Source: a virus
Lineage: Duplodnaviria > Heunggongvirae > Uroviricota > Caudoviricetes
Virus record (IMG/VR): IMGVR_UViG_2645727868_000009
Direction: 5' to 3' (one strand)
Length of the DNA: 34,486 nucleotides
Under the pieces are notes generated by a model that did no database searches, was not told where the DNA came from, and saw only the letters and a list, made by a program, of their open reading frames with translations. Positions 15,184 through 32,189 of the stretch are shown here, piece after piece. Within the stretch, counting starts at the first letter, position 1. Each line of letters begins with the position of its first letter. Both the position numbers and the translations under genes were made by a program.

Positions 15184-16308
15184 TTACTCATCTCCTGCGT
15201 AACGGGCGACATCCTCTGGATCGACGCCCATCATTGAACAAATGGCGATATCGACATCGACGTCATCGCCGGTTTTAATCTGCGCCGGGGCAGGCGACGG
15301 CGTTTTGGGGGCTTTGCCGCCGGTCTGTGTCTGACTGAGCGCAACAAGTTTCGGTGCGTTCTCCAGCCAGGACTTAAAGCCGTTGATATCGCGGCTGGCG
15401 TAATCTTTCGCCCAGTCTTCCTGTGCCGGAAGCAGTCGCCCGTCAGACAGCGCCGCCTGAATCAGTGTCCCGGCTTCGGCCTCACCGGACTGTTGCGCCA
15501 GTGCGGCATAACGCCCCTGAAGTTCTTCGAAGGCAGCAAGGGAAATGTGTTTTGACGGGTCATAGGCACTGGCTGACAGGCTGGCGATTTGCTCATCTTT
15601 CTGATTCAGCAGGGCCAGCAGGCTGACGGATGCCGCCGCCGTTCCCTGACCGTTCGAAATCATGTCAACGACCTTTTGCAGCTCGTTTTTGATATCTTCC
15701 GCCGTTGAGGTAACCGGGAGGTTAAGCATCCAGCGCAGACTGGACAGCAAATCGTTTAACAGTTCTTCATCCACTGTTGTGGTCTCCGTTTCAGTTGACA
15801 GACTCGCCAGACGGCTGGCCGCAGCCAGCATGACCGCGTCCATACCGTCCAGCGCCGGGGTATTGGTCAGTGCGGCGTGTAACAGTTCAATGACTTCGCC
15901 GCGCCGGTTGTATCCAAATACCGGGGAAATAAATTTGTACTCACCGGCGGCAATCATGGCCGCCGCGTTCTCCGTCCACTCCACACCGATGGCATACAGG
16001 CCTGAACCTTCACGCCATTCCACCTGGCTGAACCAGCCCGCCGCCGGGGCGGGCTTGCCGTTGTTTACGGCGCGCAGCGTCTGATGTTCGTAATCAATGA
16101 CAAAAGGCGTGGTACGGGCGGCCACCTGCGCGACAAGCTGCGCGGCCAGTTCAGCGGTCAGCACCCATTTACCGCTTTCGACTTCATCTGTATACGGGCG
16201 ACCATCCACCGCGCTGAACTCGCCCGCCGGTAACAGCTGGATTTCGCTGTGGGTTGCTTTAGTAATTTCGAGGCTTAACGCCGCAATGTTCATCTTCATA
16301 CGCGGCAT
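15184..16308 (-). CDS. I: Head protease/scaffold protein I
   Basis: ORF with conserved-looking core (IQLLPAGEF...) and Ala-rich scaffold-like C-terminal half. Track start 16353 is GTG; first ATG is 16308, with further in-frame ATGs at 16299 and 16293. Start uncertain. Confidence 0.75.
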   Translation of the reverse strand: MPRMKMNIAALSLEITKATHSEIQLLPAGEFSAVDGRPYTDEVESGKWVLTAELAAQLVAQVAARTTPFVIDYEHQTLRAVNNGKPAPAAGWFSQVEWREGSGLYAIGVEWTENAAAMIAAGEYKFISPVFGYNRRGEVIELLHAALTNTPALDGMDAVMLAAASRLASLSTETETTTVDEELLNDLLSSLRWMLNLPVTSTAEDIKNELQKVVDMISNGQGTAAASVSLLALLNQKDEQIASLSASAYDPSKHISLAAFEELQGRYAALAQQSGEAEAGTLIQAALSDGRLLPAQEDWAKDYASRDINGFKSWLENAPKLVALSQTQTGGKAPKTPSPAPAQIKTGDDVDVDIAICSMMGVDPEDVARYAGDE

Positions 16309-16339
16309 GATGACGGAAGGGGAACACGGGGTACTGTGG

Positions 16340-16356
16340 AGGGTGTTCAGCACCCT
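16340..16356. promoter_or_regulatory. Palindromic motif AGGGTG-TTCAG-CACCCT upstream of gene I (copy 1 of a shared element)
   Basis: Perfect 6-bp arms with 5-bp spacer; embedded in a 29-bp block (16328-16356) that recurs at 24488-24516. Confidence 0.5.
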
Positions 16357-16391
16357 GCCATAACGGGAAAGGATAAAAGGGGAAATAAAAC

Positions 16392-16480
16392 CGTTTTTAA
16401 AACCCTTTTAAAAACGATTCTGACGGCATTTATGGGGTGCGGTGCTGTTATGCCTCATCCGTGAGGCGTTTATGCCGTCA
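16392..16480. other. Structured G-I intergenic region with nested inverted repeats
   Basis: AT-rich perfect palindrome CGTTTTTAAAA-CCC-TTTTAAAAACG (16392-16416); 9-bp inverted repeat TGACGGCAT...ATGCCGTCA (16421-16429 / 16472-16480) enclosing hairpin GCCTCA-TCCG-TGAGGC (16452-16467); repeated TTATGCC. Confidence 0.6.
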
Positions 16481-21450: not shown

Positions 21451-22191
21451 TCACACCTGCGCTGCTTCTGCCTGCGCTTTTTCGATACGTGCGCAGGCGA
21501 TATCAAAATACTGGTTAGTCATTTCAATGCCGGTAAACCGTCCGCCACGGGCAAGTACCGGGATGGCGGTGGTGCCGCTTCCCATAAACGGATCGAGAAC
21601 GTGCGCATCCGGTGCCAGCGGTTTAACCAGCTCGGCCATCAGCTGAACCGGCTTTGCGGTCATGTGCAGTTTTTCGGACGGGACAACACGCTGCGTAATC
21701 ACACCCGGGAACGGGCCACCGTGCGGACATTTGTCGAGTTTTCCGTTGCTGCCCCAGACCACATACTCGGCCTGATGCCGGAAATAGCCGGTGTGTGGCG
21801 CACGGGAAGCCTGCGTTTTATCCCAGACAACAAGACCACGCCACAGCACACCACCGGCCTGAAAAACGTCGGTCATGGTGGGAAGCTGTCGCCAGTCACT
21901 GAACACCATGACATAACCACCGGGGCGCACAAGGCGGGCAGCCCCGGACATCCACAGGGTGCTCCAGTATGCCCAGCTGCGCTGGTCGCGGTTATCCCCG
22001 CTGAACTCGGCATACTGGGTGTGACCGACATACTTGTCCGAAGGGGCCATGCTGCGGTCTGATTTATGTGTGCCACCACTGCTGTAAGGCGGGTCGGTAA
22101 TGACGGCATCAAAACGTTCGGATAACGCCGGCAGCACATCAAGAACATCACCGCAATACAACGTTGCGTTACCAATAATCTGTTTTTGCAT
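21451..22191 (-). CDS. DNA methyltransferase (beta-class N6-adenine/N4-cytosine type)
   Basis: 246-aa ORF, ATG start. DPPY catalytic motif near N-terminus (VITDPPYSSGG) and FMGSGTT AdoMet-binding motif near C-terminus, i.e. motif IV before motif I. No neighbouring restriction endonuclease. Confidence 0.85.
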   Translation of the reverse strand: MQKQIIGNATLYCGDVLDVLPALSERFDAVITDPPYSSGGTHKSDRSMAPSDKYVGHTQYAEFSGDNRDQRSWAYWSTLWMSGAARLVRPGGYVMVFSDWRQLPTMTDVFQAGGVLWRGLVVWDKTQASRAPHTGYFRHQAEYVVWGSNGKLDKCPHGGPFPGVITQRVVPSEKLHMTAKPVQLMAELVKPLAPDAHVLDPFMGSGTTAIPVLARGGRFTGIEMTNQYFDIACARIEKAQAEAAQV

Positions 22192-22202
22192 TACAAATCC
22201 CG

Positions 22203-22220
22203 AATATCAGACGGCCCGGA
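22203..22220. other. GC-rich hairpin between gp27-like gene and methyltransferase gene
   Basis: GGCCCGG-AAAA-CCGGGCC perfect 7-bp stem in the 46-bp gap between the two genes. Confidence 0.5.
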
Positions 22221-22237
22221 AAACCGGGCCGCTGTGG

Positions 22238-22738
22238 TTAACTGAAATTATCCTCAAGCTCTTTAGCGAAGCCTTCGAGCACCTCAAGAAACGGGGCATA
22301 CTGTGCCGGGTGACGCTCCTTGATGAACGCGCCGAGCCGCTGCACCACTTCCAGTGCCGTGGCGAGCCGGTCGGTTTCCGGCAGGATTTTTTTGCTGCTG
22401 GCCACCGCCTTACTGAGACTGTCGGACAGACTCGCCAGCAGTTCGACGGACTCCTGCGGCGGGATGTCCGGGTTCTGGTTCAGCCGTTCAAGCGTCGTCT
22501 GACACTTCACCACCAGACTGATAAGCACGGTGCGGGCGACACTTTCCAGTCCGTCACCGGCGAGCGCGTGAGCGGCCCGCAGCTTGTCCCAGTCGTCGCC
22601 GTTCTTCATCGCCTGCGTTTTCCAGCGCCGCGCGGTGTCGTGCGGCACGGCGAACTTCATGGCGACGATATCCAGCGGAAGCTGGTCAAAGATGTACCCG
22701 TTACGGACTTTGTCCCTGATATCCTGTGACCACGCCAT
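22238..22738 (-). CDS. Mu gp27-like protein (putative terminase small subunit)
   Basis: 166-aa ORF, ATG start; position upstream of terminase large subunit; DUF1804-type protein recalled from Mu-like prophages. Confidence 0.6.
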   Translation of the reverse strand: MAWSQDIRDKVRNGYIFDQLPLDIVAMKFAVPHDTARRWKTQAMKNGDDWDKLRAAHALAGDGLESVARTVLISLVVKCQTTLERLNQNPDIPPQESVELLASLSDSLSKAVASSKKILPETDRLATALEVVQRLGAFIKERHPAQYAPFLEVLEGFAKELEDNFS

Positions 22739-22980
22739 TAAGTGTCCTTCTGAGCCTGTTCAATCCTGCGCTGAACTTCGTCGGGATTTTCAAGAACAAA
22801 CACGTTTTTCCCGGTATCCAGTTCAATGACCGTGCCATCATGTGTACCGTACTGACGGTAAAAATGGGTGATGCGTTCAGCGAGCACCATGACAGCGCCA
22901 GCACCTCCTGAACCTCTGTATTCTGTAAATCTGATAATGCTCACTGTGTCAGACCTTCGAAAAATCAGTTCTGTGAACAC
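22738..22980 (-). CDS. Hypothetical protein
   Basis: 80-aa ORF whose only upstream start is GTG without a clear RBS; kept because it fills the gap between the lysis genes and the gp27-like gene. Confidence 0.3.
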   Translation of the reverse strand: MFTELIFRRSDTVSIIRFTEYRGSGGAGAVMVLAERITHFYRQYGTHDGTVIELDTGKNVFVLENPDEVQRRIEQAQKDT

Positions 22981-23147
22981 TGCCGGATGCCGTCAATAAT
23001 CCGGCAGACCTGCGCCGCCGCGTCTAACAGCTGTCCCGTTCTGTTAATGTCTGTGCATCCCACCGGAAGCAACATCACCAGAAACAGGGCCAGAACACAG
23101 CGCGCGGCTTTACGTGGCGTTCTGTGGGTCCAGTGCTGACGCGTCAT
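22965..23147 (-). CDS. Putative small lipoprotein of the lysis cassette
   Basis: 60-aa ORF; ATG overlaps endolysin stop (ATGA); basic N-terminus then hydrophobic stretch ending LLPVGC (imperfect lipobox). Confidence 0.4.
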   Translation of the reverse strand: MTRQHWTHRTPRKAARCVLALFLVMLLPVGCTDINRTGQLLDAAAQVCRIIDGIRQCSQN

Positions 23148-23689
23148 ATCGCCACGCGCTCCTTCAGCCAGCCATAAACAAACGATTCGTTAGCCTCGCG
23201 TTTCTCCGCCAGTTCCAGATAGCGGTCCCCCTGCGTACAGTTCAGGGCCGTCAGCATCACCCGTTCACCGTCCTGACCGCGATTATTCAGGAAGGCGCGC
23301 AATGCACTGATGGTACGAGGCCCGATGCGTCCGTCTGCGTCCATATCCGGGTACAGCCTGCCGCGCAGATTGAACACATTCAGCCAGCGCTGAAGCATTC
23401 TGGACGCCACGGTTGGCCCCATATTCACACCGGTATCACACAGCTCTGCGGCAATATCAGGGGATAATGCGGCGACCTGGTCGAATCGCGGACCGTACCA
23501 GTAATCGGCTTCAAGGATGTCCAGCGCCTGCTCGCGGGTTAAATCGCGCATATCACCACGGTATCCGTGGGCACGGGCGACTTTTTCCGTAATGCCCCAT
23601 TTGGTCGGACCGCCCTTATCATCCGGGTGATTGACATAACCACCTTCTTTGCCCAGGACTTCATCAAAAATTTTATCTTTTGATTTCAT
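23144..23689 (-). CDS. Endolysin (GH108-like muramidase with peptidoglycan-binding C-terminal domain)
   Basis: 181-aa ORF, ATG start with GAGG upstream; N-terminal EGGYVNHPDDKGGPTKWGIT motif typical of GH108-family phage lysozymes. Confidence 0.75.
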   Translation of the reverse strand: MKSKDKIFDEVLGKEGGYVNHPDDKGGPTKWGITEKVARAHGYRGDMRDLTREQALDILEADYWYGPRFDQVAALSPDIAAELCDTGVNMGPTVASRMLQRWLNVFNLRGRLYPDMDADGRIGPRTISALRAFLNNRGQDGERVMLTALNCTQGDRYLELAEKREANESFVYGWLKERVAI

Positions 23690-23969
23690 GTGGATGCCTC
23701 AGTAACGAAAGGATTTTTGACAAATTCCCGTGCGCCCACACGATAAGCGCACAGAAAACCAGATTCAGCGCCACAACCAGCCAGCTGGAATGTGTGTACG
23801 TACCGGACAGCCAGCGGAACGGGATGATGACGTAGCCGAGCATCAGCCAGTACGCCAGCCAGGTAATCATCGGTTTATGCGCTGCACCGTGGCGGCGATA
23901 CACAAACAACCCCAGCACAATGGCGAGACACAGCCAGACGTTCACGATACCGGCAAGGCTACTTTCCAT
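23673..23969 (-). CDS. Lysis-cassette membrane protein
   Basis: ORF with ~3 predicted transmembrane helices between holin-like gene and endolysin. Track start 23975 is GTG; ATG at 23967-23969 preceded by GGAGGGGG. Confidence 0.45.
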   Translation of the reverse strand: MESSLAGIVNVWLCLAIVLGLFVYRRHGAAHKPMITWLAYWLMLGYVIIPFRWLSGTYTHSSWLVVALNLVFCALIVWAHGNLSKILSLLRHPHEIKR

Positions 23970-24351
23970 TTCCACCCCCTCCGCCGCGCAGTCTGGAAAA
24001 CAGGCCGAACAGCGATGAAATTTCCTGTTGATAAAGAAAGGTCAGTATCTTGATGGATAACGCCGAGACACCGACCGCACACAATGCATCGAGTGGCTTG
24101 TCGTTGTAGTGGGTCAGCCACTGCATCAGTGACGCAGCCACGCCAGCCCCCAGAACGCCAACCACAAACGCGACGAGCAGGTGGATAGCCATTCGCCATA
24201 CCGGGATTTCTTTCTGCTGCGTGACAACAAAAAGCGCTCCGGCAAACGCGCCCACCACAACCCCGAAATCGGTATTGGTGAGAAGGCCAAACACACTGGC
24301 ACCACCGATGGTGACTGCCACAGCTCCGCCGCCTGATAAGGGTTCAGACAT
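23959..24351 (-). CDS. Putative holin
   Basis: Multi-pass membrane protein immediately upstream of endolysin. Start set to ATG at 24349-24351 with AGGAGA upstream; the track ORF extends further to a non-ATG start. Confidence 0.5.
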   Translation of the reverse strand: MSEPLSGGGAVAVTIGGASVFGLLTNTDFGVVVGAFAGALFVVTQQKEIPVWRMAIHLLVAFVVGVLGAGVAASLMQWLTHYNDKPLDALCAVGVSALSIKILTFLYQQEISSLFGLFSRLRGGGGGNGK

Positions 24352-24497
24352 GAGTTTCTCCTGTAAATCTGAGCCACTGACGGCCCGTAAATAACACCCG
24401 GTCAAAGGCACAGAATGACTTTTGCCGGGCGCTATCCCTTAAGGTGCCTTGTGGTCTGAGTGGACAGGGTAAACGGTATGCTGTGGTGGGTACTGCT

Positions 24498-24516
24498 GGG
24501 GGTGTTCAGCACCCCC
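24498..24516. promoter_or_regulatory. Palindromic motif GGGGGTG-TTCAG-CACCCCC upstream of the lysis genes (copy 2)
   Basis: Perfect 7-bp arms, same TTCAG spacer and same upstream GGGTACTG block as copy 1; located between the 95-aa gene stop and the holin start. Confidence 0.5.
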
Positions 24517-24539
24517 GGCAGGTTGATTATCTGGATGGG

Positions 24540-24827
24540 TTAAAGAGAAGCGAGTTTTAATGGTGGCTTATAACATGCCCGCGCCAGCAGGTTAGCTCTT
24601 TCCACGGCATTACGCATTTCCCGTTCTGCGTCAATCATTCTGTTTACGGCTGACAGCACTTCATCATGATTCGTTACTGATTCCGGGCTTTGGGCCTGTT
24701 TCGCCAGGTAACTGGATAAACTGCACATTTCAGCATGTCGGCGACGGGCTGCATCCCGGGCCTTGTCTGAAAATGCGGTATATTCACCGAGTACTGCATA
24801 GTCGATATCGGTGTCAGAACGCATCAT
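24540..24827 (-). CDS. Hypothetical protein
   Basis: 95-aa ORF with ATGATG start and strong RBS (AAGGAGA, 7 nt spacer); between Mor/C gene and lysis genes. Confidence 0.5.
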   Translation of the reverse strand: MMRSDTDIDYAVLGEYTAFSDKARDAARRRHAEMCSLSSYLAKQAQSPESVTNHDEVLSAVNRMIDAEREMRNAVERANLLARACYKPPLKLASL

Positions 24828-24854
24828 TTCGTGTCTCCTTTTTTCTGAGGCCCA

Positions 24855-25322
24855 TTAATCAAAAAGCCCCACCTGGGTGGGGCTTTTCAGCGAAGTCTGT
24901 TTTTGTCGTCGGTGTATCAGTTGCCATGCGTACCGGTCTGAAATGCCGTAACGGGGACAGAGCAGTGCCAGCGCCTGCCGGTGTGAGCATCCGCCTTTTA
25001 CATGCTGCTGTAAATCAGCCATAAAACGGGTGTTACGCAGGGCACGTAACGCATGATCGCAACGGGGAATGTAAAACGGTGCGCCGCCAAGAAAACGGAT
25101 CAGTTTGTTGATTTCGTCTTCGGTCAGCACGTCATGTAACAGGGCATGGACACCGCCGGTGCGTTCGGCGTGTACGCCGGTTTTACCGCTTAACGTCACG
25201 CCACCAAAAGAACGAATCAACCGGGTCAGGGCGGGGAAGCCAATCACGCTAATCAGTTGCTGCACGGAATCGGGCAGCAGTGCCTGCGCATCGCGAAGAT
25301 CTGTTTCACTGAAGGTCTGCAT
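24855..25322 (-). CDS. Mor/C-family transcriptional activator
   Basis: 155-aa ORF, ATG start with GGAGA RBS; contains the GGxxxYIPR motif (FLGGAPFYIPR) and C-terminal helix-turn-helix-like segment characteristic of Mu Mor/C activators. Confidence 0.8.
   Translation of the reverse strand: MQTFSETDLRDAQALLPDSVQQLISVIGFPALTRLIRSFGGVTLSGKTGVHAERTGGVHALLHDVLTEDEINKLIRFLGGAPFYIPRCDHALRALRNTRFMADLQQHVKGGCSHRQALALLCPRYGISDRYAWQLIHRRQKQTSLKSPTQVGLFD
24861..24887 (-). terminator. Bidirectional terminator-like hairpin overlapping the Mor/C stop codon
   Basis: Perfect GC-rich inverted repeat GCCCCACC/GGTGGGGC flanked by AAAAA on one side and TTTT on the other; the minus-strand U-tract precedes the stop. 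Confidence 0.5.
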
Positions 25323-25351
25323 GATGGCGTCTCCGGTAGTAACTTACTGTT

Positions 25352-25357
25352 ATTATA
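25352..25357 (-). promoter_or_regulatory. Candidate -10 hexamer of a promoter for the Mor/C-family gene
   Basis: Perfect TATAAT on the minus strand 30 nt upstream of the Mor/C ATG, with a poor -35 region (CTGTAC at 17-bp spacing) and the terminator dyad just upstream. Confidence 0.4.
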
Positions 25358-25384
25358 GCCATACATGATCGCCTGTACAGACCA

Positions 25385-25409
25385 TAAAAAACCTCCGCGT
25401 TTGCGAAGG
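25385..25409 (-). terminator. Rho-independent terminator after the secreted-protein gene
   Basis: Minus-strand RNA forms a 7-bp stem with one G-U pair (CCUUCGC-AAAC-GCGGAGG) followed by UUUUUU; lies 13 nt after the stop at 25422. Confidence 0.6.
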
Positions 25410-25421
25410 TTTTTGTTCATA

Positions 25422-25760
25422 TTATTTTTTATTCTCGTTTATCAACACCAGGTATCCTCTGACATACTCCCATACTTTCTGGTTATCTGTTGGATGCACT
25501 TTTCGACAATCTATGGCTTCATTTCCATAATCGCCAATGTCAGCTTGGGCTTGTGTTAAGAGAATAACCTTCCTGAGAGCGCATCCTCTGATGGTATCCT
25601 TTGAAATATCATCCCAGCCATTCATGTATGAATAAGCCAGATTACGTTGTGCCTGATAATCGCCCTGTAATGTTTTTTTGACCAAATCTTCCTCTGAATC
25701 AGAAGCATGGGATATCCCTGTAAAACATAAAGTCAGAATAAGTAATAACAGTTTTTTCAT
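25422..25760 (-). CDS. Secreted/periplasmic hypothetical protein
   Basis: 112-aa ORF, ATG start with AAGGAGA RBS; N-terminal signal peptide (MKKLLLLILTLCFTGISHA); followed by an intrinsic terminator. Confidence 0.55.
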   Translation of the reverse strand: MKKLLLLILTLCFTGISHASDSEEDLVKKTLQGDYQAQRNLAYSYMNGWDDISKDTIRGCALRKVILLTQAQADIGDYGNEAIDCRKVHPTDNQKVWEYVRGYLVLINENKK

Positions 25761-26152
25761 TTACGTCTCCTTGAATCTTTAACCAGCGCCACCATCACTC
25801 CAAAAAGCTGTTCATCCGTCAGCCATTCGATCACATGTTGCTTATACATGTGAGATGCCAGTCCTTCTGCATACGCCCAGGAACGACCGGCATCAGCCAG
25901 CAACGCTTCAATTTTGGATAATACTGATTTTCTGCTCATTGCAACACGAGGGCGGCGACCTTTACCAGCGGGTGCCTTGCGCGGGAATCCCTGTTCGTGC
26001 ATGTATTCCCGGATGATGCGCAGTTCATCGAGATTGCAGCGTGTGGTGCTGGTTTTACCGGTCAGGCGGGCCAGCGTCTGGCGATAAAGGGCATCATCCC
26101 ACCCCAGATACGCCTGACCAGCTTTAATGGCCCCGATCATCTTTTTCAGCAT
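25757..26152 (-). CDS. gemA: GemA-like protein (Mu gp16-like)
   Basis: Start set to ATG at 26150-26152 (GAGGA 8 nt upstream); track ORF extends to 26251 via non-ATG start. Sequence YLGWDDALYRQTLARLTGKTS...LRIIREYMHEQGF recalled as GemA/DUF1018-like; location just upstream of Mor/C gene as in Mu. Confidence 0.65.
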   Translation of the reverse strand: MLKKMIGAIKAGQAYLGWDDALYRQTLARLTGKTSTTRCNLDELRIIREYMHEQGFPRKAPAGKGRRPRVAMSRKSVLSKIEALLADAGRSWAYAEGLASHMYKQHVIEWLTDEQLFGVMVALVKDSRRRK

Positions 26153-26402
26153 GTTTGTTATCCTCAAAACGCACGGTAAAACGTGAAACGCCAATCCCTG
26201 ACAAGAACGCAGCGGCACGGTCAAGAGACAACCACGTCTTGTAATCGCCACGGCGTTCCTGTAGAAAATAGGACACCCCGGCGCGGCGATTCACAGCGAA
26301 GAGATGATACACACCACCGAACCGCTGCACGACGAACTCATCCACGCCACCGCTTTCAGCCTGTTGCCGAAAGGCTGCCATTCCGATTTGTTCAATCTTC
26401 AT
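26124..26402 (-). CDS. Hypothetical early protein
   Basis: Start set to ATG at 26400-26402 (track start 26411 is TTG). Preceded immediately by two tandem palindromic units (see regulatory feature). Confidence 0.45.
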   Translation of the reverse strand: MKIEQIGMAAFRQQAESGGVDEFVVQRFGGVYHLFAVNRRAGVSYFLQERRGDYKTWLSLDRAAAFLSGIGVSRFTVRFEDNKHAEKDDRGH

Positions 26403-26405
26403 AAT

Positions 26406-26448
26406 GACCAAAACACTACTTTTGGCAGACCAAAAAACATGTTTTGGC
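26406..26448. promoter_or_regulatory. Two tandem 21-bp palindromic units (candidate operator)
   Basis: GACCAAAA-N-TTTTGGC at 26406-26426 and 26428-26448, each with perfect CCAAAA/TTTTGG arms and a 6-bp spacer; centres ~22 bp apart; they end 4 bp from the start of the 26124-26402 gene. Confidence 0.5.
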
Positions 26449-26556
26449 CTGCATTTGATTACTGTTTAAACAACTCGCGAAATCAGGAACGTCGAGTTTC
26501 GGTGATGGCTTTCATCGTGTTGTTGCTCCGTGATTCAGAAAATTTCATGCCGGGCC

Positions 26557-26967
26557 TCAGTATGTGAAATAGACAGTTGCCACGCCGTTATAGTGATCAA
26601 ACGACACGGCGTTTACCTCATAACTGGCCGGTAGCTTCGAGCCAAGAACGTATCCGGGCCACGTTTTCCATGGAATTTCTCTGCTCCCACTGTCGCCATA
26701 TACCGTACATCCCAGTGAGCCTACAGCTTCATAAGAACGCTTACCGCACGTTATGAATCCCAGATTTTGCTTACTGCTCTTAATGGTGATTGAGTGAACG
26801 CTGGCTGATGCATTAGCAGCACGCTGTGCCTGTTGGTTTGCGATATTCGCAGAGTTCGCAGCAGCTACAGCAGCCGTAGTCGCGGCGGTAGAGGCTACAA
26901 TAGCTGCTGAAGCATGCACTTGTTGGATATTCACCAACAATGCCGCGATAAAAATCATCTTCTTCAC
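26557..26967 (-). CDS. Secreted hypothetical protein
   Basis: 136-aa ORF; GTG start at 26965-26967 with AAGGAG 7 nt upstream (alternative ATG at 26958); signal peptide, Ala/Asn-rich low-complexity linker, Cys-containing C-terminal domain. Confidence 0.5.
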   Translation of the reverse strand: MKKMIFIAALLVNIQQVHASAAIVASTAATTAAVAAANSANIANQQAQRAANASASVHSITIKSSKQNLGFITCGKRSYEAVGSLGCTVYGDSGSREIPWKTWPGYVLGSKLPASYEVNAVSFDHYNGVATVYFTY

Positions 26968-27665
26968 TTGTCAGCTCCTTTGCGAATCTGTTCCGCCCAT
27001 TCTTCAAGGGATTTCTCCGCATATTCACCAGACAGGCCATCAATCGGATGCGCTTCATTAGCCAACTCTTCTTTCGCTGACAAAATCATGCGTGTAACGT
27101 CGAAAACTTCACGCAAAGACTTATTGATAAATCCGTGATTGAACGCAGCAGCAAGACGGCTTGCGGTGTAGTTAATCCCCTCGTTGCGTGCCTCCGCACG
27201 TATTTCAGCCAGGAAAGCATCGGTGGCTGGTGTTTCAGGTATCTGTCTCCTCATCCGTTCTATTGCATGATTGAACCCGAAGTCTTCCGCGAGAGATACG
27301 TCATCCATATTGTCATTGTCATCTTCAATATCCCGTGATTCTGGAATTGCAGACTTTATTCCCGCACTCTCCGCTGCCAGCGCCGCACGACAGGCCTCCA
27401 GTTCAGCAATACGCTTGTTTTGGGCTTCCCGCTCATCCAGTAGTGCCTGTACTACTTCAGGGTTGAAAGCTGCGATATAACGAGCGTTGTTCTCTGCGTT
27501 TTCCTGTCCATCAAAGCCGGTCCATTTGATAACGTCTTCACATCGTTTATCACCGGGTGTATGCACCGCATATGTACCAGTACCCGACGAAATAAATGCG
27601 ACCCATTCGCCTTGTGTTGCCTTTTCTGCCGCCTCACGCAGTGCCTGATAGTTAATTTTGCTCAC
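26964..27665 (-). CDS. Ead/Ea22-like protein
   Basis: Start set to GTG at 27663-27665 with AGGAGG exactly 6 nt upstream (in-frame ATG at 27683 also possible); acidic coiled-coil-containing protein with N-terminal YQALREAAEKATQGEWVAF segment recalled from Ea22-like proteins of enterobacterial prophages. Confidence 0.5.
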   Translation of the reverse strand: MSKINYQALREAAEKATQGEWVAFISSGTGTYAVHTPGDKRCEDVIKWTGFDGQENAENNARYIAAFNPEVVQALLDEREAQNKRIAELEACRAALAAESAGIKSAIPESRDIEDDNDNMDDVSLAEDFGFNHAIERMRRQIPETPATDAFLAEIRAEARNEGINYTASRLAAAFNHGFINKSLREVFDVTRMILSAKEELANEAHPIDGLSGEYAEKSLEEWAEQIRKGADK

Positions 27666-28026
27666 GGGTTGCCTCCTGTTCATTTCCCTTGTTCAGTTTT
27701 CGTCTGCATACAGCGCAATCATCGGGGCTTTCGAAGCTGTCTGGTTCGCGTTCACCAGAGTACATCCATCTGCGGCAGATACTGGTTACTTCATTCTCGG
27801 CAAAATAATGATATTTTTTCGACCTGGCTGGTCTGCCCCATCCAGCTGTTCTCTCGCTCACATCACGTTTTAATCCCCCCGCGCGGACCTCCTTTAGCTC
27901 CAGAAGGGCCAGCCTCAGAAGCGTCCACCACTCACTGTCTGCAACCGGCTCCATATCAAGCGCTCTGTCAGCATCAGCAATCAGTCTGGTCAGGCTCTTA
28001 TCGCTTATTCTGGTTTGCTGGCTCAC
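27652..28026 (-). CDS. Hypothetical protein
   Basis: Start set to GTG at 28024-28026 with AGGAGG 6 nt upstream (ATG at 28044 also possible); the junction is a near-identical copy of the one in front of the Ea22-like gene. Confidence 0.4.
   Translation of the reverse strand: MSQQTRISDKSLTRLIADADRALDMEPVADSEWWTLLRLALLELKEVRAGGLKRDVSERTAGWGRPARSKKYHYFAENEVTSICRRWMYSGEREPDSFESPDDCAVCRRKLNKGNEQEATREQN
27660..27685. repeat. 26-bp direct repeat at a gene junction (copy 1)
   Basis: GCTCACGGGTTGCCTCCTGTTCATTT; contains the AGGAGG RBS and GTG/ATG start region of the Ea22-like gene; one mismatch to copy 2. Confidence 0.7.
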
Positions 28027-28312
28027 TGGTTGCCTCCTGTTCATTTTTTTCATTCCGGTACACAAGAATTACGACATCTCCCCGGGTAATTACGCGTGCG
28101 GGGTCGCCCTGTTGCATATGGTCAATATCAAACGCGTCATTAAACGCATTTAGCGCCTTCGCGCGCTTGTCTTTACAACGACGTTTTTCACGCTGCTTAA
28201 AGAGCGAAGAAATCAACCACCTGAATGACATAAAAGTGATATAGCCATAACCGATAAGCGCCAGACCTGTATTCATGGCTACATCTATCGTTATCGTTTT
28301 ATCAATGACCAT
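27998..28312 (-). CDS. Hypothetical membrane protein
   Basis: 104-aa ORF, ATG start with AGGAGG 6 nt upstream; one predicted transmembrane segment near N-terminus. Confidence 0.4.
   Translation of the reverse strand: MVIDKTITIDVAMNTGLALIGYGYITFMSFRWLISSLFKQREKRRCKDKRAKALNAFNDAFDIDHMQQGDPARVITRGDVVILVYRNEKNEQEATSEPANQNKR
28021..28046. repeat. 26-bp direct repeat at a gene junction (copy 2)
   Basis: GCTCACTGGTTGCCTCCTGTTCATTT; same junction architecture in front of the 27652-28026 gene. Confidence 0.7.
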
Positions 28313-28532
28313 TGCCAGCCTCCTGTTTTGCCACTTTAAACGCCCGTAACATCGGGACCGTTTTACCGCTGATGACAGTGTTCATAACAATACCGATTCC
28401 ACTGTGATGTAACGCTCCCGGTGCAACAAACAGCGCAGCATCTACAACTCTGAAGTAACGGTGGAACTCCCAGAACCAGCAAGAAATAGTGATAGTTGCG
28501 GTGACCCCATGGTCATAAAATTCAATTTTCAT
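28302..28532 (-). CDS. Hypothetical protein
   Basis: 76-aa ORF, ATG start, weak RBS; stop overlaps next gene's RBS. Confidence 0.35.
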   Translation of the reverse strand: MKIEFYDHGVTATITISCWFWEFHRYFRVVDAALFVAPGALHHSGIGIVMNTVISGKTVPMLRAFKVAKQEAGNGH

Positions 28533-28756
28533 TTGCAGTTAAACCTTCTCTTATGACGTTCTACGGCAGCCTTCATATTGTTGTGCACGGTTCTTTTAAT
28601 AATCCGACGTCCCACACTGTCATAGAACCGCCACCGGGAAGCCCCCGGATATCCGGGGAACTCAACCACCGCGCTACCGTCATTCATCCTGTATTCGTGG
28701 CGTTCTCCGGGCGGCTGGTATATTGCTTCGGTAACACTGAGAAGTTTAAAAGCCAT
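28529..28756 (-). CDS. Hypothetical protein
   Basis: 75-aa ORF, ATG start with GGAGG upstream. Confidence 0.4.
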   Translation of the reverse strand: MAFKLLSVTEAIYQPPGERHEYRMNDGSAVVEFPGYPGASRWRFYDSVGRRIIKRTVHNNMKAAVERHKRRFNCK

Positions 28757-28758
28757 CG

Positions 28759-29469
28759 TTACACCCTCCCCAGTGCCAGCGGTCTGTTGCTCTGACCATT
28801 AACCCCCTGATGCAGTCTGGCGTTTTTCCCGGCGATAAAACCGGCTGTAGCGGCAAACTCTGCACCTCGACACGCTTTAGCTGTGCGCATATCCCCGTCG
28901 CGTAGCCCCTTAGTGCTGTGCAGGTTCTTTCTGTAAAGCTCAAGGCGGCTTTTTTCTTCCGGGGAGACGTCATACACCGCAATGACATCACGGGCACCAA
29001 AGACCCAGCCTTCGCAGAACTGGTCGCCACGGGCTACCCGCGTGGACGGACCACAACGTTTGCAGTGTTTATCCTGATATTTCTTGCGCTCTGCCATCAT
29101 CTGACGGGAAAGCACATCAAACGCGTAAGCCGCGATTTCCGGGCGGCTGTCAGAGCCATAAAAACGCACGTGACGTTTGAGTGAACCAGAAGCCCGGTAT
29201 TCGCCGGATATGTAACACTCGACACCGAAGGCTTTACAGACCAGGTCACACAGGATGTGCATATAACGCGGCGGTGTACTGGCATCACTCGGCGCACCCG
29301 CGCTGGCAGCTTCCTGAATGTCGAACAATTCAGCGTCGTTTTCGCTGATGCCATGCTGGCGCATATAAGCCTGGGCTTTTGCAATAGCGTTAGCGGCTTC
29401 TTCCGGGCTTGATGTTCCTCTGGCAAGGCGTAACAGTTTTTTGATTTTGGCAATGTATTTATCTTTCAT
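28759..29469 (-). CDS. DUF2786-like phage protein
   Basis: 236-aa ORF, ATG start; N-terminus (IAKIKKLLRLARGTSSPEEAANAIAKAQAYMRQHGI) matches the helical motif recalled for DUF2786; Cys-containing C-terminal domain; function unknown. Confidence 0.5.
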   Translation of the reverse strand: MKDKYIAKIKKLLRLARGTSSPEEAANAIAKAQAYMRQHGISENDAELFDIQEAASAGAPSDASTPPRYMHILCDLVCKAFGVECYISGEYRASGSLKRHVRFYGSDSRPEIAAYAFDVLSRQMMAERKKYQDKHCKRCGPSTRVARGDQFCEGWVFGARDVIAVYDVSPEEKSRLELYRKNLHSTKGLRDGDMRTAKACRGAEFAATAGFIAGKNARLHQGVNGQSNRPLALGRV

Positions 29470-29747
29470 GGTCGTCTGAACCTCAGCATCCTGAATTCTG
29501 AATTACGCAACTTCCGGCACGGCCTTCAGGAACGTGGGGAGTTCGTTCTGGCTGCGGCGCTGGATGAACATCTGCCGTCGATTGAGAACTGGTCGCAAGA
29601 CGATTAAAACAAACGATTGTCAGATTAATTTCGCGGGCGAATTTTTTTTGCTTAGCGATATTCATAAATAAACTTCCTCAGATTCAGGCGTAAGCCAGCC
29701 CCGGCGGGTTTACGCCTGTTTTAAATAACAATTAAAAACAAATTAAA

Positions 29748-29939
29748 TTAATGCGGTTCTTTCAGTGTTTCGACTTTTACGAAATAAGGCTCGACATTAA
29801 TTTCAACCACACAACCACATTTAAAATCTCTGGCAGGTGAAACGGTTTTCACCACACGACCACCACGCAACGCCGGATGTGCAGTGTGCATGAAGCGAGT
29901 CCCTACCGGATACTGCTTATTAAAGTTCTTCGCATTCAT
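29748..29939 (-). CDS. Hypothetical protein
   Basis: 63-aa ORF, ATG start, weak RBS; overlaps upstream gene end. Confidence 0.3.
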   Translation of the reverse strand: MNAKNFNKQYPVGTRFMHTAHPALRGGRVVKTVSPARDFKCGCVVEINVEPYFVKVETLKEPH

Positions 29940-30153
29940 GGCGTGGCTTCCATCCTTTCAGGTGAGCATTAGCACAGAACTCGGCCCGGTGTTCCGCCCA
30001 GATGCGGCGCAGGGTGCTACACGGGCTTTGTGCTGCCTTACGCCACAGCTTTTCAGCCTCGGCATAATCGCCGCGTTGTTCTGCTCTGGACGCGCCCAGC
30101 GAATACGCCGCGCAACTATTTCCGGCTCTGTACTCTTTGATATCCTGATGCAT
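29920..30153 (-). CDS. Hypothetical protein
   Basis: Start set to in-frame ATG at 30151-30153, 1 nt after the upstream gene stop; the track ORF extends to 30243, overlapping the upstream gene. Confidence 0.4.
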   Translation of the reverse strand: MHQDIKEYRAGNSCAAYSLGASRAEQRGDYAEAEKLWRKAAQSPCSTLRRIWAEHRAEFCANAHLKGWKPRHECEEL

Positions 30154-31056: not shown

Positions 31057-31296
31057 TTATTGCCATACGACGGTGCAGCCGTCGATACAGGACGTTTTCA
31101 CCACGCGGCGCAGGCCGCTGAATGTCTGGATGATTTCCGTTACCGGCCATACAGGGCCGCCCACGGGCGGGCAGGCATAAACCACAGGTAAACGGTGATG
31201 TTGCCCAGTTACGCGACCGCCGGTGGTGTGGATGGCCACACGGGCACGGGAACGGACGGCGTTAATGGTCTGCTTGTCCATCATCTTGTTCTCCAT
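31057..31296 (-). CDS. Hypothetical early protein
   Basis: 79-aa ORF whose ATG overlaps the B gene stop (TGATG), implying translational coupling; occupies the position of kil in Mu but no sequence identity is claimed. Confidence 0.45.
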   Translation of the reverse strand: MENKMMDKQTINAVRSRARVAIHTTGGRVTGQHHRLPVVYACPPVGGPVWPVTEIIQTFSGLRRVVKTSCIDGCTVVWQ

Positions 31297-32189
31297 CAGT
31301 GAATTAACATTTCTGCGAATTTATCAATGGCCTGCACACTGACCGGTGCATCGCTGATATCACAAATCCGGTACACACCGCGCGCCAGTTTGAACAGGCG
31401 GCGGGCATTACCCAGTGAGCGTGCGTAGAGCGCCTCGCTGATTTCCGGTTCTGCTGCTTCCGGCATCAGCCCGGTAGCTATCTGGTTAAAATCTTCCTGC
31501 GACAGCGTATCGCCCAGGTTAAGCGCCAGCGCCACACGGCTGTATAACTGGGCGAACTCACCGCGACGTCCCTTGAGGTTAATCAGAAGGCGTGGCATAC
31601 CCGCCAGGACAATCCCGATACCCGCTTTGTCATGCAGACGGCGCAGAACCTCCAGTGCGCGATAGGGGAGCAGTTCAGCCTCGTCCACCATCAGCAGGCG
31701 ACCGGAATCACGCAGTTCTCGCACACATGCATCAATCAGTTCGTGGATATTGCCGCGAACTTTTACCCCCAGCTGGCGGCACAGCTCCTCAAGCAGTGTT
31801 CTGGCTGTATAGCCCGGGTCGGCTTCAATCAGGACCGCATCCCGGTTTCTGGCGGCGTATTCACGCAGAATCATTGTTTTGCCAAGACCTGCCGCGCCAT
31901 ACAGTACGCAGATTTCACATTCCAGGTGAGCATAGGCCAACACCTCCAGTCCTTTGGCAGCCATACCGGTGGCAACAAATTTCGCTTTAATACGGCGGCT
32001 GTTTTCCTTTTCCCGCTCACGGGTCACAAAGGCAGAAATGCGTTCTTCAATATCAGCCATATCGCCCTGATATTTACCCTGTAAATACTGGTTGATAACG
32101 GCGCTGCTACGACCAATAGCACGGGCGACGTGGGTTTGCGTATAGCCGCGACGGGCCATTACGTCATTTAATTGCGTAATTAAACTCAT
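31296..32189 (-). CDS. B: DNA transposition ATPase B (MuB-like)
   Basis: 297-aa ORF, ATG start with AAGGT RBS; N-terminal helix-turn-helix region, Walker A (GAAGLGKT) and Walker B (LLMVDEAE) motifs; directly downstream of transposase. Confidence 0.85.
   Translation of the reverse strand: MSLITQLNDVMARRGYTQTHVARAIGRSSAVINQYLQGKYQGDMADIEERISAFVTREREKENSRRIKAKFVATGMAAKGLEVLAYAHLECEICVLYGAAGLGKTMILREYAARNRDAVLIEADPGYTARTLLEELCRQLGVKVRGNIHELIDACVRELRDSGRLLMVDEAELLPYRALEVLRRLHDKAGIGIVLAGMPRLLINLKGRRGEFAQLYSRVALALNLGDTLSQEDFNQIATGLMPEAAEPEISEALYARSLGNARRLFKLARGVYRICDISDAPVSVQAIDKFAEMLIH

What the first reader, a model, noticed from the sequence alone, without database searches (positions are those of the whole stretch)
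24855..25322. Only one Mor/C-family activator in a phage that, by Mu precedent, should need two
Mu uses Mor to activate the middle promoter and C to activate late promoters. Between B and the lysis genes this window has a single protein with the GGxxxYIPR signature, sitting right before the lysis block (the position of C) and followed by a hairpin overlapping its stop. Either this phage runs a simplified one-activator cascade, or the second activator is too divergent to recognise from sequence; the 92-aa and 95-aa unknowns at 26124-26402 and 24540-24827 are the candidates.
Basis: partly seen in the sequence, partly recalled or inferred. Interest (0 to 1): 0.45.

Follow-up and report, generated by a model that had tools for sequence, protein, structure and literature searches.

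The report
Single Mor/C activator, ordinary for Mu-like phages
This Mu-like E. coli prophage has just one Mor/C-type late-gene activator, which is the usual arrangement for Mu-like phages outside Mu itself, and it most likely switches on three recognisable late promoters directly.

Summary
ORF 24855-25322 (- strand) is the only Mor/C-family gene in the window and in the whole prophage, and a strong hairpin overlaps its stop codon. The two proposed hidden activators are unrelated to Mor/C: the 95-aa protein is a two-helix hairpin and the 92-aa protein is a small alpha/beta domain, with profile-profile probabilities below 1%.

The premise that the phage "should need two" fails. Among deposited phages only Mu, D108, SfMu and close kin show two copies, and the lack of C in SuMu and 3927AP2 is already published.

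A composite motif, GCTGAACNCC-N30-ANNNT, occurs exactly three times (0.01 expected). All three are on the coding strand, in gaps before the lysis, head-protease and baseplate operons. The motif and its fixed 28-nt spacing to a -10 hexamer recur at syntenic sites in relatives, and the element changes with the Mor lineage. This matches Mu C-type promoters, so the activator works like C from Mor's genomic position.

In the E. coli/Salmonella lineage, mor lies between two intrinsic terminators and has its own conserved sigma-70-type promoter containing a GATC. Xenorhabdus/Photorhabdus relatives carry two Mor paralogues.

Ordinary finding; modest by-products.

The parts
24855..25322 (-). mor/C-family activator gene (155 aa), the only family member in the prophage
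   Evidence: Pfam Mor 28.5 bits against a 24.9-bit cut-off. PHROG 836 at E 3.5e-42. Own HMM gives 235 bits with no second hit. The subfamily profile's best match among solved structures is Mu 'Late transcription activator C' (9l0x, E 8e-4); no chain named Mor appeared at E <= 1.
24861..24888 (-). Intrinsic-terminator-like hairpin overlapping the mor stop codon; its 3' arm encodes the C-terminal QVGLFD tail
   Evidence: dG -20.6 kcal/mol, z -4.4, followed by a U-tract. Conserved in E. coli variants and in Salmonella. The Q-x-x-L-F tail is conserved across the subfamily. It matches the clamp-binding motif reported for MuC (PMC12867686).
25387..25414 (-). Intrinsic terminator at the end of the early operon, directly upstream of the mor promoter
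   Evidence: dG -15.8 kcal/mol, z -5.25, followed by U6. The equivalent position in E. coli variants and Salmonella carries different stem sequences. It is present even in a variant with no insert gene.
25352..25379 (-). Sigma-70-type promoter for mor (TGTACA-16 nt-TATAAT) with GATC at 25367-25370
   Evidence: 10 of 12 consensus match. CTGTACA, GATCA and TATAAT are conserved while other spacer bases vary, in the window, L039 (Mor 92% identical) and Salmonella L019 (66% identical).
24466..24510 (-). Predicted late promoter for the lysis operon: element GCTGAACACCCCCAGC, 23 nt, -10 hexamer TACCCT
   Evidence: Composite pattern hits 3 times against 0.01 expected. Conserved in E2348/69. The same architecture is found at the syntenic site in L003-L007, L019 and IMG/VR loci.
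16307..16351 (-). Predicted late promoter for the head operon (before protease I): element GCTGAACACCCTCCAC, -10 hexamer CATCAT, then 7 nt to the ATG at 16299
   Evidence: The hexamer lies 6-7 nt before the ATG in every relative checked, with no Shine-Dalgarno sequence, which predicts a leaderless mRNA.
4391..4435 (-). Predicted late promoter for the baseplate and tail-fibre genes: element GCTGAACACCCTCACC, -10 hexamer CAGACT, then 6 nt to the ATG at 4384
   Evidence: Identical in E2348/69. No RNA hairpin forms here (dG -2.5 kcal/mol), so the conserved feature is the DNA sequence.
24540..24827 (-). 95-aa accessory ORF between the mor terminator and the lysis promoter; not a Mor/C protein
   Evidence: AlphaFold2 pLDDT 79, two long helices. 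No PDB match at E <= 1e-3. hhalign probability 0.2%. Narrow distribution. Diverged alleles in E2348/69 and Salmonella. Absent in L004 and L005.
26124..26402 (-). 92-aa ORF upstream of gemA; not a Mor/C protein
25757..26152 (-). gemA (gp16) homologue, the conserved upstream neighbour of mor
   Evidence: Pfam GemA E 2.8e-18. RefSeq annotation 'gp16 family protein'.
25422..25760 (-). Low-GC 112-aa secreted ORF in a variable cargo slot between gemA and the terminator
   Evidence: GC about 0.40 against about 0.53 in the flanks. Other E. coli variants carry a 158-aa ORF, a 174-aa ORF or nothing here.

Best explanation
The ORF at 24855-25322 is the prophage's sole Mor/C-family transcription activator, and it most likely acts directly on the late promoters. 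It therefore does the job of Mu C while sitting where Mu Mor sits, after gemA.

Shown by computation:
- There is one family member.
- There are three copies of a composite element: GCTGAAC(A)CCC, then 28 nt, then a (T/C)AnnnT hexamer. None has a -35 hexamer. Each lies in an intergenic gap ahead of the lysis, head (protease I) and baseplate operons.
- The same architecture occurs at syntenic places in relatives, and the element differs between Mor lineages.

Inferred:
- Mor binds the element, which would be centred about -44 to -48, and recruits the sigma-70 RNA polymerase holoenzyme as Mu C and Mor do.
- The conserved C-terminal QVGLF tail engages the beta clamp as in MuC.
- The head and baseplate transcripts start at or next to the AUG (leaderless).

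In this E. coli/Salmonella lineage the early operon ends at an intrinsic terminator. mor then has its own conserved sigma-70-type promoter and ends in a second terminator. Timing is therefore probably set by promoter and terminator logic and by accumulation of Mor, not by a second activator.
For: Single copy.

Promoters:
- The composite pattern occurs 3 times against 0.01 expected, all on the - strand and all intergenic.
- The sites are conserved in the E2348/69 prophage.
- The spacing is identical at the lysis and protease-I positions in L003-L007, L019 and 16 IMG/VR loci.
- Lineages whose Mor is 35-40% identical carry different elements at the same two positions with the same 28-nt spacing: GCTGAATGCGGTCATC in L008 and GACGAACCCCATCATC in L009/L010.
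- RNA hairpin potential is not conserved: dG is -21.0, -12.5 and -2.5 kcal/mol at the three sites. This points to a DNA site.

Published features of Mu C promoters are a -10 hexamer, no -35 hexamer, a 16-bp imperfect dyad centred at -43.5 and a required region from -52 to -34 (PMC2582627).

Affinity to C: the subfamily profile matches the MuC structures 9l0x and 9vw8, and no chain named Mor appeared at E <= 1. The window protein is about 54% identical to the second, C-positioned paralogue of the two-Mor relatives and about 36% identical to the first.

One activator is the norm and is published for related phages.
Against: - No transcript mapping, binding or genetic data exist for this phage. 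The -10 hexamers are weak (TACCCT, CATCAT, CAGACT), and the transcription start sites are predicted from geometry only.
- The terminator upstream of mor, together with a near-consensus promoter, leaves open how mor is kept silent in the lysogen. An unidentified regulator of that promoter would add a cascade step.
- The window-specific dyad GGGTG-N5-CACCC and the dyad GCTGA-N6-TCAGC seen in relatives give different centres (about -48 against -43.5).
- Mu's own C sites (TTAT-N11-ATAA at the lys promoter, read) are unrelated in sequence.
Confidence: 0.75

Rival explanations
1. A two-step cascade still exists, but the first step is not a Mor/C protein. An early phage protein, the immunity repressor, or a host or replication cue such as Dam hemimethylation at the conserved GATC would control the dedicated mor promoter. 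That promoter would then play the role of Mu's middle promoter.
For: A terminator lies directly upstream of mor in every E. coli and Salmonella variant, including one with no insert gene. The -35 hexamer, GATCA and -10 hexamer are conserved while other spacer bases vary. In relatives with two paralogues, the orthologous gene has its own activator-type promoter, so separate control of this gene recurs in the clade.
Against: The promoter has a 4/6 -35 hexamer and a perfect -10 hexamer, so it needs no activator on paper. No copy of the early-region operator repeats lies near it. No other recognisable regulator was found among the early ORFs. Other relatives have mor fused to the early operon with no promoter at all.
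Confidence: 0.2
2. One of the small unknown ORFs (95 aa at 24540-24827 or 92 aa at 26124-26402) is a Mor/C paralogue too divergent to recognise from sequence.
For: Position only. The 95-aa gene lies between mor and the lysis genes, where C lies in Mu.
Against: hhalign probabilities are 0.2% and 0.8%. The HMM gives E > 7 for both. The predicted folds are a helical hairpin and an alpha/beta domain, with no helix-turn-helix motif and no Gly-Gly beta-strand linker. Profile searches against PDB sequences return no Mor/C chain. The 95-aa gene is missing in L004 and L005, which keep the same late promoters.
Confidence: 0.02
3. The repeated GGGTGCTGAACACCC element works at the RNA level, as an inter-operon terminator, a processing site or a stability hairpin, and is not a promoter element.
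For: The copy before the holin gene folds into a 12-bp hairpin (dG -21.0 kcal/mol, z -3.9) and was picked up by the terminator scan on the opposite strand.
Against: There is no U-tract on the coding strand. The head copy folds weakly (z -1.5) and the baseplate copy does not fold (dG -2.5 kcal/mol). In relatives the left arm is not conserved, whereas the 3' half and its exact distance to a -10-like hexamer are.
Confidence: 0.05
4. The prophage is a decayed Mu relative that lost its second activator and middle operon.
For: None beyond the comparison with Mu.
Against: The gene set runs complete from transposase to tail fibre. The same layout is found in 58 to 112 E. coli genomes at different insertion sites. 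It also occurs in Salmonella and other genera.
Confidence: 0.03

Closest known systems
Phage Mu late activator C (Mor/C family, Pfam PF08765)
   Same: Same family by the Pfam cut-off. [quoted passage not shown] The predicted targets have the same logic as Mu's lys, I and P late promoters: a -10 hexamer, no -35 hexamer, and an upstream element of about 16 bp. They lie before the lysis, protease-I and baseplate genes.
   Different: The gene lies after gemA rather than in a Mor-dependent middle operon. There is no N-terminal Q-x-D-L-F motif. The protein has extra segments of about 25 and 9 residues. The element sequence is unrelated to Mu's TTAT-N11-ATAA. There is no mom promoter, because the prophage has no com or mom genes.
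Phage Mu middle activator Mor
   Same: Same family. Same genomic neighbour (gemA). A terminator-like hairpin lies right after the gene, as with the hairpin that follows mor in Mu at about 9.18-9.20 kb.
   Different: There is no Mor-dependent middle promoter and no downstream C. The hairpin after this gene is not at the right distance from any -10 hexamer; the Shine-Dalgarno sequence of the next gene sits where a hexamer would be (and my own indexing). The subfamily profile matched MuC structures, and no chain named Mor appeared at E <= 1.
Single-Mor Mu-like phages: SuMu, Mannheimia 3927AP2, D3112-like Pseudomonas phages, Klebsiella ST405-OXA48phi1.1
   Same: Each has one long-type Mor (31-41% identical here) after gemA and directly before the lysis genes. 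3927AP2 also has a GH108 endolysin. The lack of C and of middle genes is explicitly reported (PMC4553209).
   Different: The late promoters of those phages were not examined here. The terminator, promoter and terminator framing of mor was seen only in the E. coli/Salmonella lineage.
Xenorhabdus/Photorhabdus prophage relatives with two Mor paralogues (L004, L005, and 8 of 36 IMG/VR loci)
   Same: Same clade: the second paralogue is 54-56% identical to the window protein. The late-promoter element and spacing are the same.
   Different: They carry an additional upstream paralogue, 36% identical to the window protein. They also have an activator-type promoter, ACTGAACCCCTTCAAC-N23-AATACT, in front of the second gene. 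This is a Mu-like two-step layout.
P2 Ogr / 186 B late activators (from my own knowledge, not tested here)
   Same: A single small phage activator turns on all late operons from sites upstream of -35. In 186 the activator gene has its own promoter.
   Different: An unrelated zinc-finger protein family in non-transposable phages.

Membership tests
Mor/C transcription activator family (PF08765) | Score above Pfam's curated cut-off | tested here: met
   28.5 bits against 24.9, E 1.6e-6, residues 58-143. PHROG 836 at E 3.5e-42.
Mor/C transcription activator family (PF08765) | Invariant Gly-Gly...Tyr-x-Pro beta-strand linker between the dimerisation and helix-turn-helix domains (C residues 70G, 71G, 75Y, 77P, 79G; PMC2582627) | tested here: met
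   G79, G80, Y84 and P86 are present in FLGGAPFYIPR. The fifth position (79G in C) is Cys88 throughout this subfamily, so four of the five invariant residues are kept.
Mor/C transcription activator family (PF08765) | C-terminal helix-turn-helix DNA-binding domain | tested here: met
   The subfamily profile aligns residues 68-152 to MuC residues 58-134 in 9l0x, E 8e-4. This is a sequence alignment only; no structure was predicted for this protein.
Mor/C transcription activator family (PF08765) | Clamp-binding motif: N-terminal Qx[DE][LM]F and/or C-terminal QPDLF (PMC12867686) | tested here: met
   The C-terminal QVGLF (residues 150-154) is invariant as Q..LF in the subfamily. No N-terminal motif is present. 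Actual clamp binding cannot be tested here.
Mor/C transcription activator family (PF08765) | Binds an imperfect dyad of about 16 bp centred near -43.5 in promoters that have a -10 hexamer but no -35 hexamer | tested here: inconclusive
   Three candidate sites with this geometry exist and are conserved. Binding and transcription start sites are inferred, not measured.
Mu-type three-phase cascade (Mor -> middle promoter -> C -> late promoters) | Two paralogous Mor/C genes in one genome | tested here: not met
   One hit only in the window and in the whole prophage. The same model finds two in Mu, L004 and L005.
Mu-type three-phase cascade (Mor -> middle promoter -> C -> late promoters) | An activator-dependent middle promoter between the two activator genes | tested here: not met
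   No GCTGAAC-type element lies upstream of mor or of the 95-aa gene. The mor promoter has a recognisable -35 hexamer.
Mor/C family, applied to the 95-aa ORF 24540-24827 | Sequence or fold similarity to Mor/C | tested here: not met
Mor/C family, applied to the 92-aa ORF 26124-26402 | Sequence or fold similarity to Mor/C | tested here: not met
Rho-independent (intrinsic) terminator, for the hairpins at 24861-24888 and 25387-25414 | Stable GC-rich stem-loop immediately followed by a U-tract on the transcribed strand | tested here: met
   dG -20.6 and -15.8 kcal/mol; none of 200 shuffles folds as well; followed by U5 and U6. Termination efficiency cannot be tested here.

The most novel reading that the evidence does not exclude
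Within one clade of Mu-like prophages the control of the late-activator gene has been rewired at least three ways:
- fused to the early operon;
- driven by a second Mor paralogue through an activator-type promoter;
- as here, insulated between two terminators behind its own sigma-70 promoter.

The conserved GATC in that promoter could make mor expression respond to Dam hemimethylation. That would tie it to replicative transposition, so a DNA-state cue would replace the Mor step. Separately, the head and baseplate late operons would be transcribed as leaderless mRNAs throughout the clade.
Probability: 0.2. Interest if true: 0.55.

Novelty: new member of a known kind. Interest (0 to 1): 0.28.

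Why it matters
It corrects an expectation. Mu's Mor-then-C relay is the exception among transposable phages, not the rule, so a single Mor/C gene needs no special explanation.

The useful products are practical:
- A testable map of the three late promoters of a prophage type found in more than 100 complete E. coli genomes, including the EPEC reference strain E2348/69.
- A natural comparison set of one-activator and two-activator relatives for studying how phage timing circuits gain or lose a step.
- A prediction that the clamp-binding tail recently described for MuC is kept in these single activators.

Tried and rejected
- Megablast of 22000-30000 against deposited phages found only mosaic ead/Ea22 pieces and no close phage.
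- The alignment that included Mu Mor and C was too divergent to seed a collection scan.
- I tested whether the hairpin at the mor stop doubles as an activator site for a middle-type promoter, as the hairpin after mor does in Mu. By Mu's geometry (dyad centre to hexamer about 34 nt, read), the hexamer would fall on the Shine-Dalgarno sequence AAGGAG of the 95-aa gene. Rejected.
- I tested whether the terminator upstream of mor could be a Mor-type site for the mor promoter. The distance is 43.5 nt and a -35 hexamer is present. Rejected.
- I looked for early-region operator repeats (CTTTCTTTTC, GGATAACAC) or further copies of CTGTACAG near the mor promoter. None were found.
- Rfam and tRNA scans of the window gave nothing.
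- Pfam scans of the remaining small early ORFs found no other regulator.
- A literature search for induction or transcript data on the E2348/69 Mu-like prophage found nothing.
- I tried to equate the element with Mu's C site through a shared AACCCC core. I dropped this after re-indexing Mu's lys promoter, where the TTAT-N11-ATAA dyad, not the AACCCC run, fits the published position.
- A fourth, weaker copy (GCTGAACGCATCACCC...CATGAT, 22837-22881) lies inside a coding sequence and lacks the CCC core. I did not count it as a promoter.

Full report
WHAT THE WINDOW IS

The window is almost the whole of a Mu-like (transposable) prophage of E. coli, with its genes on the - strand. It is 100% identical to NZ_CP082831 and several other genomes.

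The gene order on the - strand is:
- a Ner-like helix-turn-helix gene, transposase A (32208-34250) and B (31296-32189);
- about 20 small early genes;
- a 92-aa ORF (26124-26402) and gemA (25757-26152);
- a low-GC 112-aa secreted ORF (25422-25760);
- the Mor-like gene (24855-25322) and a 95-aa ORF (24540-24827);
- two holins, a GH108 endolysin, DUF1804, a DNA methyltransferase and the large terminase;
- portal, head, tail and baseplate genes, then the tail fibre.

The prophage ends about 200 bp beyond window position 1, and there are no com or mom genes.

THE OBSERVATION

It holds. The ORF passes Pfam's Mor cut-off at 28.5 bits against 24.9. It carries the only GG...YIP string in the six-frame translation.

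An HMM built from its subfamily plus Mu Mor and Mu C was run with all filters off. It scores this ORF at 235 bits, and nothing else scores better than E = 0.42. The same model finds one hit in the whole prophage, two in Mu and two in some relatives, so it is able to see a second copy when one exists.

The hairpin at the stop codon (24861-24888) has dG -20.6 kcal/mol and a U-tract.

THE TWO PROPOSED HIDDEN ACTIVATORS

The 95-aa protein models as two long helices (pLDDT 79). It has no solved-structure match at E <= 1e-3 and an hhalign probability of 0.2% against the Mor/C alignment.

Profile searches of both against PDB sequences return no Mor or C chain. The 95-aa gene has only close homologues. 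It is a diverged allele in E2348/69 and Salmonella. It is absent from Xenorhabdus and Photorhabdus relatives that keep the same late promoters. Neither protein is a Mor/C homologue.

IS ONE ACTIVATOR UNUSUAL?

No.
- tblastn with the window protein hits 137 deposited phage genomes: D3112-like Pseudomonas phages, SuMu, Mannheimia 3927AP2, and Klebsiella and Ralstonia phages. Each has exactly one hit.
- With Mu C as query, 83 records match. Only 14 have two hits, and the ones listed with two are Mu, D108, SfMu and Yersinia Mu-type phages. BcepMu, phiE255, Vibrio martha, HS6, PhiKM and others have one.
- Niu et al. [quoted passage not shown]
- A later survey treats 'the late regulator Mor/C' as a single core gene of transposable phages (PMC8705779).

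WHAT THE ACTIVATOR PROBABLY ACTS ON

The 'hairpin' downstream of the 95-aa gene is one of three copies of GGGTGCTGAACACCC on the coding strand. The composite pattern GCTGAACNCC-N30-ANNNT occurs exactly three times in the window, against 0.01 expected from shuffles. The three sites are:
- 24466-24510, before the holins;
- 16307-16351, in the 209-bp gap before protease I;
- 4391-4435, in the 53-bp gap before the gp46-like baseplate gene.

In kind these correspond to Mu's lys, I and P late promoters. All three are conserved in the E2348/69 prophage.

In relatives whose Mor is 50-66% identical, the element GCTGAACCC(C/T)(C/T)TCA(G/A)C sits at the syntenic lysis and protease-I positions. This holds for L003-L007, Salmonella L019 and 16 IMG/VR loci. 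The element is always followed after the same distance by a -10-like hexamer: TACACT, TATGCT, TATACT, CATCAT, CAGAAT or CACAAT.

Lineages with more distant Mor proteins (35-40% identical) carry different elements at the same two positions with the same spacing:
- GCTGAATG(C/G)GGTCATC with TATGCT in L008;
- GACGAACCCCATCATC with GATAAT in L009 and L010.

None of these sites has a -35 hexamer. With standard -10 numbering the 16-bp element spans about -51 to -36. Its centre is -43.5 for the GCTGA...TCAGC dyad of relatives and about -48 for the window-specific GGGTG...CACCC dyad. Published Mu C sites are a 16-bp imperfect dyad centred at -43.5 within a required region from -52 to -34 (PMC2582627).

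RNA folding is not the conserved property. dG is -21.0, -12.5 and -2.5 kcal/mol at the three window sites.

I therefore read these as Mor-dependent late promoters. This is inferred from comparative anatomy; nothing has been measured.

IS THE PROTEIN MORE C-LIKE OR MORE MOR-LIKE?

- The subfamily profile's only significant solved-structure matches are Mu 'Late transcription activator C' (9l0x and 9vw8, E about 1e-3). No chain named Mor appeared at E <= 1.
- Pairwise, Mu Mor and Mu C are each other's closest relatives (38% identical). The Mu pair therefore does not map onto an ancient split.
- The C-terminal tail QVGLF is conserved as Q..LF across the subfamily. It matches the C-terminal clamp-binding motif that Ho and Harshey (PMC12867686) showed to be needed for MuC-dependent transcription. 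The N-terminal motif is absent.
- The codons for VGLFD form the 3' arm of the terminator hairpin.

RELATIVES WITH TWO ACTIVATORS

Xenorhabdus ehlersii (L004), Photorhabdus cinerea (L005) and 8 of 36 IMG/VR relatives carry two Mor paralogues about 1 kb apart.

The downstream copy is the orthologue of the window gene (54-56% identical). The upstream copy is 36% identical.

In every such locus checked, the downstream gene is preceded by ACTGAACCCCTTCAAC-N23-AATACT (L044 and L047-L051, L004 and L005, and so on). This is a promoter of the late type with A in place of the first G. It is a Mu-like two-step layout inside the same clade, so the number of steps is evolutionarily labile.

HOW mor ITSELF IS EXPRESSED HERE

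In L003, L006, L007, L043, L045, L046, L052 and L056, mor abuts gemA and must be the last early gene.

The E. coli/Salmonella lineage differs:
- An intrinsic terminator follows gemA or the cargo gene (25387-25414, dG -15.8 kcal/mol, followed by U6).
- Variants carry different stem sequences at that position. One variant has no cargo gene but still has the terminator.
- Next comes a promoter, TGTACA-16 nt-TATAAT (25352-25379).
- Across the window, L039 and Salmonella L019, the segments CTGTACA, GATCA and TATAAT are kept while other spacer bases change. That pattern argues the promoter is functional.

I could not find what keeps it quiet in a lysogen. No early-region operator repeat occurs nearby, and no other regulator is recognisable among the early ORFs.

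This is the main gap. It is also the basis of the principal rival: a non-Mor first step, possibly tied to the conserved GATC.

OTHER POINTS

At the protease-I site in every lineage, and at the baseplate site in the window, the hexamer is followed by 6-7 nt and then the ATG. No Shine-Dalgarno sequence is present. The encoded N-terminus MK.NIAAL is conserved, so these operons are predicted to give leaderless mRNAs.

The 95-aa gene starts 27 nt after the mor stop codon, with the terminator in between and no room for a promoter. It can be expressed only by read-through or from inside mor. Its function remains unknown.

VERDICT

A single Mor/C activator placed after gemA and before the lysis genes is the common, already described layout of Mu-like phages. 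This prophage is another member of that kind. The most likely mechanism is direct activation of three late promoters by this one protein (confidence about 0.75).

The by-products are worth a note but rest on sequence comparison only. They are the promoter map, the predicted leaderless late operons, the insulated mor cassette with a conserved GATC, and the two-activator sister lineage.

Noticed in passing
window 25422-25760 (compare L013 1623-1717, L014 1708-2184, L015 1719-2243): There is a variable cargo slot between gemA and the terminator upstream of mor. Here it holds a low-GC 112-aa secreted ORF with a weak Sel1-like match. E2348/69 has a 158-aa ORF, TUM1881 has a 174-aa ORF, and strain 48956 has nothing. 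In Photorhabdus a 176-aa secreted low-GC ORF occupies the equivalent slot between the two Mor genes.
   Followed up: partly
window 25367-25370: A GATC (Dam site) in the spacer of the mor promoter is conserved in three diverged versions of the promoter, while neighbouring spacer bases vary. It may make the promoter sensitive to methylation or replication state.
   Followed up: partly
window 16299-16312 and 4384-4396; L003-L010 and IMG/VR loci: The predicted head and baseplate late transcripts would start at or next to the AUG. The hexamer is followed by 6-7 nt and then ATG, with no Shine-Dalgarno sequence. This is conserved in all lineages examined.
   Followed up: partly
window 16356-16420: The A/T-tract-rich stretch TCGTTTTTAAAAGGGTTTTAAAAACGGTTTTATTT, in the gap between the G-like gene and protease I, resembles the Mu interval that holds the annotated gyrase cut site (L018 3880). 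It may be a central strong gyrase site, a promoter UP element, or both.
   Followed up: no
L001 33614-34954 and L016 2674-3276 (outside the window ends): The Mu-like prophage is inserted inside the prohead protease/capsid region of a lambdoid (HK97-type) prophage. In E2348/69 the same phage type interrupts eutC (L017 952-1425 and 37142-37579).
   Followed up: partly
window 29920-30153: RefSeq annotates a small ORF here as an ANR-family (AraC negative regulator) protein. It is also present in the E2348/69 copy. It may be a host-directed regulator carried in the early region.
   Followed up: no
window 26964-28312: The ead/Ea22-like and DUF4752 genes are 88-96% identical to segments of Stx-converting and other lambdoid phages. 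This indicates mosaic exchange between Mu-like and lambdoid early regions. A 26-nt repeat (27660-27685 and 28021-28046) marks two ORF starts that share the peptide MNRRQPVS.
   Followed up: no
window 22837-22881: A fourth, weaker copy of the promoter pattern (GCTGAACGCATCACCC...CATGAT) lies inside the 50-aa ORF upstream of DUF1804 and the terminase genes. It is conserved in E2348/69. It lacks the CCC core and is coding, so its status is unclear.
   Followed up: partly
window 24352-24465: The predicted leader of about 108 nt between the lysis promoter and the holin start is almost invariant among E. coli variants, although the 95-aa gene just upstream is highly diverged. There is no Rfam match.
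   Followed up: no
L005 8696-8923: In the two-Mor Photorhabdus relative, a 75-aa Cys-containing ORF (CPICHSDFHLD...) lies between gemA and the first Mor gene. It was not examined.
   Followed up: no
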